A stretch of DNA of 6,252 nt from a virus (Duplodnaviria > Heunggongvirae > Uroviricota > Caudoviricetes). Below are positions 4,362 to 4,794 of this stretch, in pieces (the stretch's first letter is position 1; each line of letters begins with the position of its first letter). Location: IMG/VR virus record IMGVR_UViG_2698536307_000011; one strand, given 5' to 3'. The position numbers and the translations under genes are program-made. The notes beneath the pieces are model-generated. The model worked only from the letters and a program-made list of their open reading frames with translations. It was not told the DNA's origin and did no database searches.

Positions 4362-4794
4362 ATGTTTGGTATTTTTGGTAAAAAAAGCCCGCAGAGCGGC
4401 AACGGAAATTAAAAAGTTTGAAAAACGCGATCTGGCACAGGTGGTGATTAACGCCGCATACCTGGTGGCCTGTGCAGATGGTGAATGTGAGGCTTCCTAG
4501 AAAGCGAAGATCGAACAGGTACTGCGTAATCAGCCTGCGCTGTACGCGTTTACGTCAGAAATTAATGCGATTAGCGCAACCATTATCGGTCAGCTGGATA
4601 CGAACTTTAAAACTGGTCGTCGTGCGGCGTTACGTGAGATCGAGGATGTGAAACACGATACGCGTGAAGCGGAAGATGTGCTGGATGTGGCGGTGGCCAT
4701 TGCGGAGGCAGACGGCGAAATTGAGCCGGAAGAGCGCAAGGTGCTGGAAGAGATTGCCGGTGTTCTGGGTCTTCGTCTGGAGAATTACCTGTGA
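4362..4794 (+). pseudogene. TerB-family (tellurite-resistance TerB-like) gene disrupted by a frameshift in an A7 tract (4380-4386) and an in-frame amber codon (TAG 4498-4500)
   Basis: ATG 4362 with SD AAGGA (4348-4352) opens MFGIFGKK, which hits a stop at 4410 in frame 0. The +1 frame continues ARRAATEIKKFEKRDLAQVVINAAYLVACADGECEAS-TAG-KAKIEQVL...DVLDVAVAIAEADGEIEPEERKVLEEIAGVLGLRLENYL to TGA 4792-4794. Both ADGE..E repeats align with E. coli TerB (ASDGVSSEEKQK and AKSDGNFDDDEKSAVREIA) as recalled. Confidence 0.65.

What the first reader, a model, noticed from the sequence alone, without database searches (positions are those of the whole stretch)
4377..4412. Frameshift at an A7 homopolymer in the N-terminus of the TerB-like gene
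The ATG at 4362 with a good SD opens MFGIFGKK in frame 0 and stops 16 codons in, while the TerB-homologous body continues in the +1 frame from the A-run onward; six A's would restore one frame. This is either a real inactivating slip, a slippage-prone phase-variable tract, or a homopolymer assembly error.
Basis: seen in the sequence. Interest (0 to 1): 0.4.

Follow-up and report, generated by a model that had tools for sequence, protein, structure and literature searches.

The report
Frameshifted, stop-interrupted prophage TerB pseudogene
A small phage-carried "TerB-like" accessory gene (tciA) in an E. coli prophage is broken twice, by an extra A in a run of A's near its start and by a stop codon 112 bases further on, so it is an ordinary decaying prophage gene.

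Summary
ATG 4362 follows a good Shine-Dalgarno. It opens MFGIFGKK, runs through A7 (4380-4386) and stops at TAA 4410-4412 after 16 codons. The TerB (PF05099) body continues in the +1 frame to TGA 4792-4794. Intact homologues start at this ATG and have six A-equivalents (GGT AAA AAA GCC, or AAA AAG AAA ACC). The N-terminus MFG.F.KK.R.A is conserved from E. coli to Pantoea and Erwinia jumbo phages. The TTG 4366 start used by RefSeq is therefore a workaround for A7 alleles, not the ancestral start.

It is not an assembly error: the exact A7 61-mer occurs in 556 complete E. coli records. It does not look phase-variable: exact A6 occurs in 8 records and exact A8 in none.

Codon 46 is TAG (4498-4500) where intact homologues have GAG, so restoring A6 would not rescue this copy. 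No upstream tRNA reads UAG.

The gene belongs to the phage P1 tciA/tciB-type moron family. It lies between the Q antiterminator/tRNA cluster and a SASA esterase gene. RefSeq already marks the locus as a pseudogene, citing only the internal stop.

Low interest: a fixed +1 insertion in a twice-disrupted prophage gene.

The parts
4348..4354 (+). Shine-Dalgarno-like AAAGGAA. The AGGA core at 4350-4353 lies 8 nt before ATG 4362 and 12 nt before TTG 4366.
   Evidence: Read from the sequence. The AAAGGAACGTCACGATG context is the same in 7 of the 8 loci of alignment A1; MFDS1019527 (L008) reads AAAGGAAAAGTCACGATG, with one extra base and one substitution.
4362..4364 (+). Ancestral ATG start codon of the TerB-like gene (tciA-like).
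   Evidence: Intact 432-nt homologues are annotated from this ATG. Synonymous changes GGT>GGA, ATT>ATC and TTT>TTC fall in its frame. The MFG... N-terminus is conserved in 23 aligned proteins. phrog_632 aligns residues 1-143 to profile 1-143.
4380..4386 (+). A7 homopolymer: a +1 insertion relative to the A6 (AAA AAA = Lys7 Lys8) of intact alleles.
   Evidence: Alignment A1. Allele counts.
4362..4412 (+). Truncated frame-0 ORF, MFGIFGKKSPQSGNGN plus TAA. This is the product expected from initiation at the ATG on the A7 allele.
   Evidence: Translation.
4366..4368 (+). TTG in the +1 frame, used by PGAP as the start of the pseudogene model. It is not the ancestral start.
   Evidence: PGAP model 4366-4794. 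In A6 alleles this TTG is out of frame. MVFLV N-termini occur only in E. coli A7 alleles.
4387..4794 (+). TerB-domain body of the gene in the +1 frame, interrupted by TAG, ending at TGA 4792-4794.
   Evidence: Translation. Pfam PF05099 on the repaired product and on intact homologues.
4498..4500 (+). In-frame TAG nonsense codon (codon 46 of the repaired 143-codon gene numbered from ATG 4362). It is GAG (Glu) in all intact homologues and is a second, independent lesion.
   Evidence: PGAP note 'internal stop'. Glu46 is at least 90% conserved.
4791..4958 (+). Downstream tciB-like gene (DUF3927, 55 aa). Its GTG start overlaps the TerB stop (GTGA). It is intact.
   Evidence: Pfam PF13064 at 60.4 bits. 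phrog_1470 'TciB-like'. It is 55 aa in 35 of 35 A7+TAG loci tabulated.
3943..4192 (+). Cluster of three phage tRNA genes just upstream, with anticodons CAT, TCG and TCT. None can read UAG.
   Evidence: ARAGORN. PGAP calls them Ile, Arg, Arg.

Best explanation
The feature is a fixed one-base insertion (A6 to A7) in codons 7-8 of a prophage tciA-like TerB-family moron gene. It most likely arose by replication slippage in a lysine-codon A-run.

Ribosomes that start at the conserved, well-spaced ATG 4362 read 16 codons and stop at TAA 4410-4412. The TerB body is left in the +1 frame. In this window the same gene also carries GAG>TAG at codon 46 (4498-4500). The copy is therefore a doubly disrupted pseudogene that hitch-hikes in the late-regulatory module of a lambdoid prophage (hok, DUF968, rusA, Q, tRNAs, tciA, tciB, SASA esterase).

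Shown here: the anatomy, the ancestral start, the allele distribution and the second lesion. Inferred: replication slippage as the origin, preference of ribosomes for ATG over TTG, and reduced coupled translation of tciB.
For: Anatomy.

Ancestral state: intact homologues are 432 nt from the same ATG with GGT AAA AAA GCC or AAA AAG AAA ACC. The N-terminus MFG.F.KK.R.A is conserved across E. coli, Salmonella, Klebsiella, Serratia, Pantoea, Enterobacter and Erwinia/Salmonella phages. tblastn alignments to many phage homologues, including P7, D6, P1 and several Pseudomonas phages, start at query residue 1; others start at residue 2 or 4. phrog_632 aligns full length, 1-143.

Real, not artefact: the 699-nt region is 100% identical in all 40 top-listed records, mostly independent O157:H7 genomes, and 529 records have a best place at >=99% identity. 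The exact A7 61-mer is in 556 records.

Stable, not switching: exact A6 is in 8 records and exact A8 in 0.

Second lesion: TAG 4498-4500. PGAP flags the locus as a pseudogene in four genomes.

Allele combinations: of 43 IMG/VR contigs with A7, 31 carry TAG and 12 carry GAG. A6+TAG also exists (L054, L055).

Substitution pattern: differences among the A7+TAG alleles are mostly non-synonymous (0 syn/2 nonsyn, 0/3, 0/1, 1/1). Comparison with a distant intact allele gives 43 synonymous and 14 non-synonymous nucleotide differences. This fits relaxed constraint, but the numbers are small.

Recurrence: an independent A-run indel (A5 to A4) exists in another allele class.
Against: PGAP models the gene from TTG 4366 with no frameshift, and calls the A7-only allele of strain E110019 an intact 142-aa protein. 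A7-only alleles carry no further lesions in the 12 A7+GAG loci long enough to tabulate. The insertion alone may therefore reduce expression rather than abolish it.

No expression data were available. The order of the two lesions cannot be fixed, because all four A6/A7 x GAG/TAG combinations exist. That pattern points to recombination between prophage copies or to recurrence.
Confidence: 0.9

Rival explanations
1. There is no inactivating frameshift. The gene on A7 alleles is translated from TTG 4366 in the +1 frame, as in the RefSeq model. It gives a 142-aa TerB protein whose first residues are MVFLV instead of MFGIFG. On this reading the A-insertion is a tolerated start-codon shift, and only the TAG inactivates this copy.
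For: PGAP models the gene as 4366-4794 and notes only 'internal stop'. The A7+GAG allele of E110019 is annotated intact as WP_001299793.1. The TTG lies 12 nt from the AGGA core, still within a usable range. A7+GAG alleles have no further stops in the 12 such loci long enough to tabulate, and they are common (12 of 43 IMG/VR A7 contigs; representative P0050 of an 847-member cluster).
Against: In every A6 or AAG-type allele the TTG is out of frame, so it cannot be the ancestral start. MVFLV N-termini are confined to E. coli A7 alleles. The better-spaced ATG only 4 nt upstream should capture most initiating ribosomes (established knowledge of start-codon strength; inference). Most A7 alleles (31 of 43) have acquired a second lesion.
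Confidence: 0.12
2. The A-run is a phase-variable (contingency) tract that switches the gene on and off by reversible slipped-strand mispairing.
For: A6 and A7 alleles with identical 60-nt flanks both exist. One genome (2013C-3342) carries an A6 copy and an A7 copy in different prophages. Another allele class shows an independent A5 to A4 indel in the same Lys-rich segment, so A-runs here are mutation-prone.
Against: The length distribution is strongly skewed and not scattered: 556 A7, 8 A6, 0 A8. The A6 copy in 2013C-3342 differs from the window's gene at 22 nucleotide positions besides the run (15 synonymous, 7 non-synonymous), so it is a different allele and not a switched one. Seven A's is shorter than typical contingency tracts (background knowledge). 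In this window TAG 4498 makes an ON state impossible.
Confidence: 0.03
3. The change of frame is corrected during expression, either by programmed +1 ribosomal frameshifting on AAA AAA A or by transcriptional slippage that deletes one A.
For: A-runs are known slippery sequences for both tRNA-Lys and RNA polymerase (reviewed in PMC5009743; background knowledge). A +1 slip on AAA-A would give exactly the A6 product.
Against: The two-frame arrangement is not conserved. Divergent homologues have a single frame and non-slippery AAA AAG AAA ACC. No stop codon sits in the A site after the run: the next frame-0 codon is AGC, which I do not take to be a rare codon (own knowledge). Selection against, or use of, slippage becomes evident at about 9 A/T in many bacteria (PMC1088944). 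In the E. coli transcriptome, slippage in homopolymers gives insertions, and fewer than 1% of RNA deletions start in homopolymer runs (PMC5574713); rescue here needs a deletion. TAG 4498 would still truncate any corrected product.
Confidence: 0.02
4. The extra A is a homopolymer sequencing or assembly error in the source record.
For: Homopolymers are a classic source of error. The source of the window and its read data are unknown.
Against: The 699-nt region is 100% identical in all 40 top-listed complete genomes, from many different laboratories. The exact A7 61-mer is in 556 records, usually twice per genome. It is also in 43 IMG/VR contigs.
Confidence: 0.01

Closest known systems
tciA / tciB of lambdoid Escherichia phage JLK-2012 (O55:H7 DEC5E) and phage PPyecE_EH1910 ('TciA/TerB-like protein')
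   Same: Same gene pair in the same order, at 92.8% and 87.7% DNA identity over the region and 96.5% and 93.7% protein identity over all 143 residues. They are annotated tciA (tellurite resistance) and tciB.
   Different: The tblastn alignments cover all 143 residues in a single piece, starting at residue 1, which I take to mean those copies are uninterrupted; I did not read their sequences or annotation flags. The window copy has the A7 insertion and the TAG.
[quoted passage not shown]
   Same: A TerB-domain protein followed by a small TciB-like membrane protein, carried as a moron near phage tRNA genes. phrog_632 and phrog_1470 cover both proteins full length. P7 and D6 are 51-52% identical over 100% of the query, and P1 is 42% identical over 75%.
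   Different: They are distant in sequence. P1 has a third gene, tciC. The function is only predicted from terB similarity (PMC9603915, PMC6799933). The P1 copies are not reported as frameshifted.
TerB of the terZABCDEF tellurite-resistance / phage-inhibition operon (Pfam PF05099)
   Same: It shares the TerB domain, at 48.2 bits for the intact homologue and 39.9 bits for the repaired window product, against a 24.4-bit cut-off.
   Different: It is a stand-alone phage gene paired with DUF3927, not part of a ter operon. There is no hit to any PADLOC defence model. Nothing here shows tellurite resistance.
Homopolymer frameshift pseudogenes and 'fs-genes' in prokaryotic genomes (GeneTack survey PMC3711429; 9A/9T cases in PMC1088944)
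   Same: A single-base indel in an A-run splits an otherwise conserved ORF.
   Different: The run is only 7 nt, below the roughly 9 nt at which slippage during expression is productive. The split is not conserved among homologues, and a second lesion is present.

Membership tests
TerB family (Pfam PF05099) | Significant match to the TerB domain profile above the gathering score. | tested here: met
   The repaired window product scores 39.9 bits (E 5.9e-10) against a 24.4-bit cut-off. Intact homologues score 48.2 and 49.2 bits.
Phage tciA/tciB moron pair (phrog_632 + phrog_1470) | A full-length match of the TerB-like protein to phrog_632, with an adjacent downstream TciB-like/DUF3927 gene. | tested here: met
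   phrog_632 scores 228 bits over 1-143 of 143, and phrog_1470 scores 102 bits over 1-54 of 54. DUF3927 scores 60.4 bits. The GTGA overlap is at 4791-4794.
Phage tciA/tciB moron pair (phrog_632 + phrog_1470) | An intact, translatable tciA reading frame. | tested here: not met
   There is a +1 insertion at 4380-4386 and a TAG at 4498-4500. PGAP flags the locus as a pseudogene.
ter operon tellurite-resistance / phage-inhibition system | TerB encoded together with terZ/A/C/D/E/F genes, conferring tellurite resistance. | tested here: not met
   The neighbours are tRNAs, DUF3927 and a SASA esterase. There is no PADLOC hit. The phenotype cannot be tested with these tools.
Phase-variable contingency locus (homopolymer slipped-strand switching) | Tract-length polymorphism among otherwise identical loci or closely related strains. 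| tested here: not met
   Exact A7 is in 556 records, exact A6 in 8 and exact A8 in 0. Both O157:H7 copies examined are A7.
Phase-variable contingency locus (homopolymer slipped-strand switching) | One tract length restores a complete open reading frame (an ON state). | tested here: not met
   With A6 this copy would still stop at TAG 4498-4500.
Programmed ribosomal frameshift / transcriptional-slippage recoding site | The slippery site and two-frame organisation are conserved among homologues. | tested here: not met
   Divergent homologues have a single frame with AAA AAG AAA ACC or A6. Proteins are collinear from Met1.
Programmed ribosomal frameshift / transcriptional-slippage recoding site | Stimulatory elements (an A-site stop or rare codon for +1 shifting, or a run of about 9 or more A/T for RNA polymerase slippage). 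| tested here: not met
   The next frame-0 codon is AGC and the run is 7 nt. The threshold literature is PMC1088944 and PMC5574713. Actual slippage rates were not measured.

The most novel reading that the evidence does not exclude
The A7 insertion may not be a null mutation by itself. It may shift initiation from ATG 4362 to the TTG 4 nt downstream. That would give a weakly expressed 142-aa TciA with a replaced N-terminal pentapeptide. It would explain why A7-only alleles persist without further lesions in many E. coli prophages, and it would make the insertion a way of turning down a possibly costly moron. In this window the TAG would then be the only truly inactivating lesion.
Probability: 0.12. 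Interest if true: 0.2.

Novelty: already known. Interest (0 to 1): 0.08.

Why it matters
It matters little biologically. This is one more decaying accessory gene in an E. coli lambdoid prophage.

There are two practical points.

(1) RefSeq/PGAP models of this locus start at TTG 4366 and mention only the internal stop. A7-only alleles are called intact 142-aa proteins with an artefactual MVFLV N-terminus. Comparison with homologues shows these are frameshifted derivatives of a 143-aa MFGIFGKK... protein.

(2) The tciA 5' end contains several lysine-codon A-runs with independent indels in different allele classes. Automated annotation of this family should be read with care.

Tried and rejected
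- **Assembly error:** rejected. Identical sequence occurs in hundreds of complete genomes and in IMG/VR contigs.
rejected as the ancestral state. Kept as a minor rival for residual expression.
- **Suppressor tRNA in the upstream cluster reading UAG 4498:** rejected. The anticodons are CAT, TCG and TCT.
- **Programmed frameshift or transcriptional slippage:** rejected. The arrangement is not conserved and the run is short.
- **Phase variation:** rejected on allele counts.
- **Defence-system membership:** no PADLOC hit. NCBIfam gave only a sub-threshold DjlA match.
- **Literature on 'tciA':** the first search was swamped by The Cancer Imaging Archive, and 'DUF3927' gave one irrelevant paper. 'tciA'+'tciB' led to the P1-like phage-plasmid papers.
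- **Order of the two lesions:** could not be resolved, because all four A6/A7 x GAG/TAG combinations exist.
- **Whole-window search:** gave no exact source. The best match is 99.8% identity over 98% of the window in non-O157 strains.
- **Failed call:** one paper reading failed on a short search term.

Full report
**What is in the sequence**

The stretch 4348-4412 reads AAAGGAA-cgtcacg-ATG TTT GGT ATT TTT GGT AAA AAA AGC CCG CAG AGC GGC AAC GGA AAT TAA. The ATG is at 4362-4364 and the A7 run at 4380-4386. Frame 0 gives MFGIFGKKSPQSGNGN and stops at TAA 4410-4412 after 16 codons.

The frame one base to the right reads ...VKKARRAATEIKKFEKRDLAQVVINAAYLVACADGECEAS*KAKIEQVLRNQ...LGLRLENYL* and ends at TGA 4792-4794. 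With one A removed and the internal stop masked, the product hits Pfam TerB (PF05099) at 39.9 bits against a 24.4-bit cut-off.

An A7 run is not in itself improbable. The window has 7 A7/T7 matches against 2.2 expected, and 8 of 200 shuffles do as well. The evidence for a frameshift comes from homologues, not from statistics.

**Context**

The window is the late-regulatory module of an E. coli lambdoid prophage:
- hokD, a DUF968 gene (1634-2683), rusA (2696-3055) and antiterminator Q (3046-3741);
- three tRNA genes (3943-4192);
- the TerB-like gene, then a 55-aa DUF3927 gene (4791-4958) whose GTG overlaps the TerB stop;
- a SASA-family carbohydrate esterase gene.

The 4262-4960 stretch is 100% identical to loci in many complete genomes. 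These include numerous O157:H7 strains and unrelated isolates from a panda, pigs and cattle. The whole window matches best at 99.8% over 98% in non-O157 strains, so the exact source is not in the collection.

**Which start is real**

Four intact homologues were annotated as 432-nt genes: RM9154, EC20017429, SCU-104 and MFDS1019527. All begin at the ATG equivalent to 4362. They read GGT AAA AAA GCC or AAA AAG AAA ACC, one base fewer than the window exactly at the run.

Between these alleles the first codons differ by GGT>GGA, ATT>ATC and TTT>TTC. These changes are synonymous only in the ATG frame.

A search of 5.8 billion proteins found 145 relatives. In an alignment of 23 of them the N-terminus is MFG.F.KK.R.A. 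The set includes Salmonella, Klebsiella, Serratia, Pantoea, Enterobacter and Erwinia and Salmonella jumbo phages, down to 51% identity. Only E. coli proteins derived from A7 alleles start MVFLVKK.

PHROG family 632 aligns residues 1-143 to profile positions 1-143. tblastn alignments to P7, D6, P1 and several Pseudomonas phages start at residue 1; others start at residue 2 or 4.

PGAP starts its model of this locus at TTG 4366 and notes only 'internal stop'. It calls the A7-only allele of strain E110019 an intact 429-nt gene. That TTG is out of frame in every A6-type allele, so it is a gene-caller's rescue and not the ancestral start.

**Artefact, switch or fixed mutation**

I queried 5426 complete E. 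coli genomes with 60-62-mers that differ only in run length:
- the exact A7 version is the best place in 556 records;
- the exact A6 version in 8 records;
- the exact A8 version in none.

Because each query ranks its own best place, an A8 or A6 copy anywhere in a genome would have been counted. O157:H7 genomes carry two copies in different prophages. In the two cases examined both copies are A7 plus TAG.

Strain 2013C-3342 has one A7+TAG copy and one intact A6 copy. The A6 copy differs from the window's gene at 22 other nucleotide positions, 15 synonymous and 7 non-synonymous. It is therefore a different allele and not a switched one.

This pattern excludes an assembly error. It also argues against a rapidly switching contingency tract.

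**A second lesion**

Codon 46 is TAG (4498-4500). It is GAG in all intact homologues, and Glu at that position is at least 90% conserved. The upstream tRNAs have anticodons CAT, TCG and TCT, so none reads UAG. Restoring A6 would therefore not restore this copy. In this window the phase-variation and recoding ideas cannot rescue the gene.

Of 43 IMG/VR contigs with A7, 31 also have TAG and 12 have GAG. Two contigs have A6 with TAG on a different flank haplotype. All four combinations exist, which points to recombination between prophage copies or to recurrence. The order of events cannot be fixed.

The downstream DUF3927 gene stays intact at 55 aa in all 35 A7+TAG loci tabulated.

Among A7+TAG alleles the few differences are mostly non-synonymous (0 synonymous/2 non-synonymous, 0/3, 0/1, 1/1). 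Against a distant intact allele, synonymous differences dominate (43 against 14). This is compatible with relaxed constraint, but the counts are small.

**Recoding**

A +1 slip of tRNA-Lys on AAA-A, or loss of one A in the transcript, would reproduce the A6 product. Four observations argue against a recoding site:
- The two-frame arrangement is not conserved.
- The next frame-0 codon is AGC, not a stop; I do not take it to be a rare codon (own knowledge).
- The run is below the roughly 9 nt at which slippage becomes productive in many bacteria (PMC1088944).
- Transcriptome-wide data for E. coli show insertions in homopolymers, with fewer than 1% of RNA deletions starting there (PMC5574713). 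Rescue here needs a deletion.

I did not measure any rates.

**Mutation-prone 5' end**

Another allele class (L056) has CAAAAAG shortened to CAAAAG in the same Lys-rich segment. Gene callers rescue it with an upstream start in another frame, giving 157 aa. P0031 looks like a doubly shifted, compensated N-terminus. The 5' end of this gene family therefore collects A-run indels repeatedly.

**Family and function**

The gene pair is the lambdoid version of tciA/tciB. [quoted passage not shown] That role is predicted from similarity to terB and has not been tested (PMC9603915, PMC6799933). Close intact copies are annotated tciA/tciB in phage JLK-2012. PHROGs classes both proteins as morons. No PADLOC defence model matches.

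**Verdict**

This is a real, fixed +1 insertion in an A-run of a prophage moron gene. It is accompanied by a nonsense codon 112 nt downstream. The locus is an ordinary pseudogene and is already flagged as such in RefSeq, though with the lesion described differently.

One minor open point remains: whether A7-only alleles elsewhere still make some protein from the TTG start.

Noticed in passing
window 4498-4500: An in-frame TAG (Glu46>stop) lies in the same TerB-like gene and was not mentioned in the finding. It occurs on both A7 and A6 backgrounds in other loci (L054, L055), which suggests recombination between prophage copies or recurrence.
   Followed up: yes
window 4791-4958: The tciB-like DUF3927 gene (55 aa, hydrophobic) starts at a GTG that overlaps the tciA stop (GTGA). 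This suggests translational coupling, so the premature stops in tciA may lower its expression. It nevertheless stays intact at 55 aa in all 35 A7+TAG loci tabulated.
   Followed up: partly
L056 640-670 (GCA_028888375.1); proteins P0015, P0031, P0041: Another tciA allele class has an independent A-run indel (CAAAAAG>CAAAAG) at the equivalent Lys codons. Gene callers rescue it with an upstream start, giving 157 aa. P0031 and P0041 appear to have a second, compensating shift (N-terminus ...KRKPAERLRKL then KKFEKRD).
   Followed up: partly
proteins P0006 and P0013 (E. coli, O157:H7): Some alleles carry a two-residue insertion right after codon 46-47 (EKFKAK or EKVKAK instead of EKAK), next to the site of the TAG mutation. 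This may be a small duplication hotspot.
   Followed up: no
window 3943-4018: ARAGORN calls the first tRNA Met (anticodon CAT). PGAP annotates the identical gene as tRNA-Ile, presumably a lysidine-modified ileX/ileZ type. It is followed by tRNA-Arg(TCG) and tRNA-Arg(TCT).
   Followed up: partly
L008 59-139 (strain MFDS1019527): In a related prophage the second tRNA position holds an 81-nt gene that PGAP labels 'tRNA-OTHER' in place of tRNA-Arg.
   Followed up: no
window 594-806: A hokD-type type I toxin gene (product ...MKQQKAMLIALIVICLTVIVTALVTRKDLCEVRIRTGQTEVAVFTAYESEE) lies at the left of the module, upstream of the DUF968/rusA/Q genes.
   Followed up: no
window 5160-5187 and about 5153-5295 (- strand): A GC-rich hairpin followed by a T run (terminator-like) sits just before the SASA esterase gene, which starts near 5273. 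PGAP also annotates a small antisense pseudogene fragment that overlaps that start. In the second O157:H7 copy the gene at this downstream position is annotated as a frameshifted DUF6645 domain-containing protein (L010 2421-3061).
   Followed up: no
window 1-6252: The whole window has no exact match in 5426 complete E. coli genomes. The best is 99.8% over 98% in non-O157 strains, and the first 120 nt do not align. The 699 nt around tciA, by contrast, are 100% identical in many O157:H7 genomes. This is the mosaic structure typical of lambdoid prophages.
   Followed up: partly
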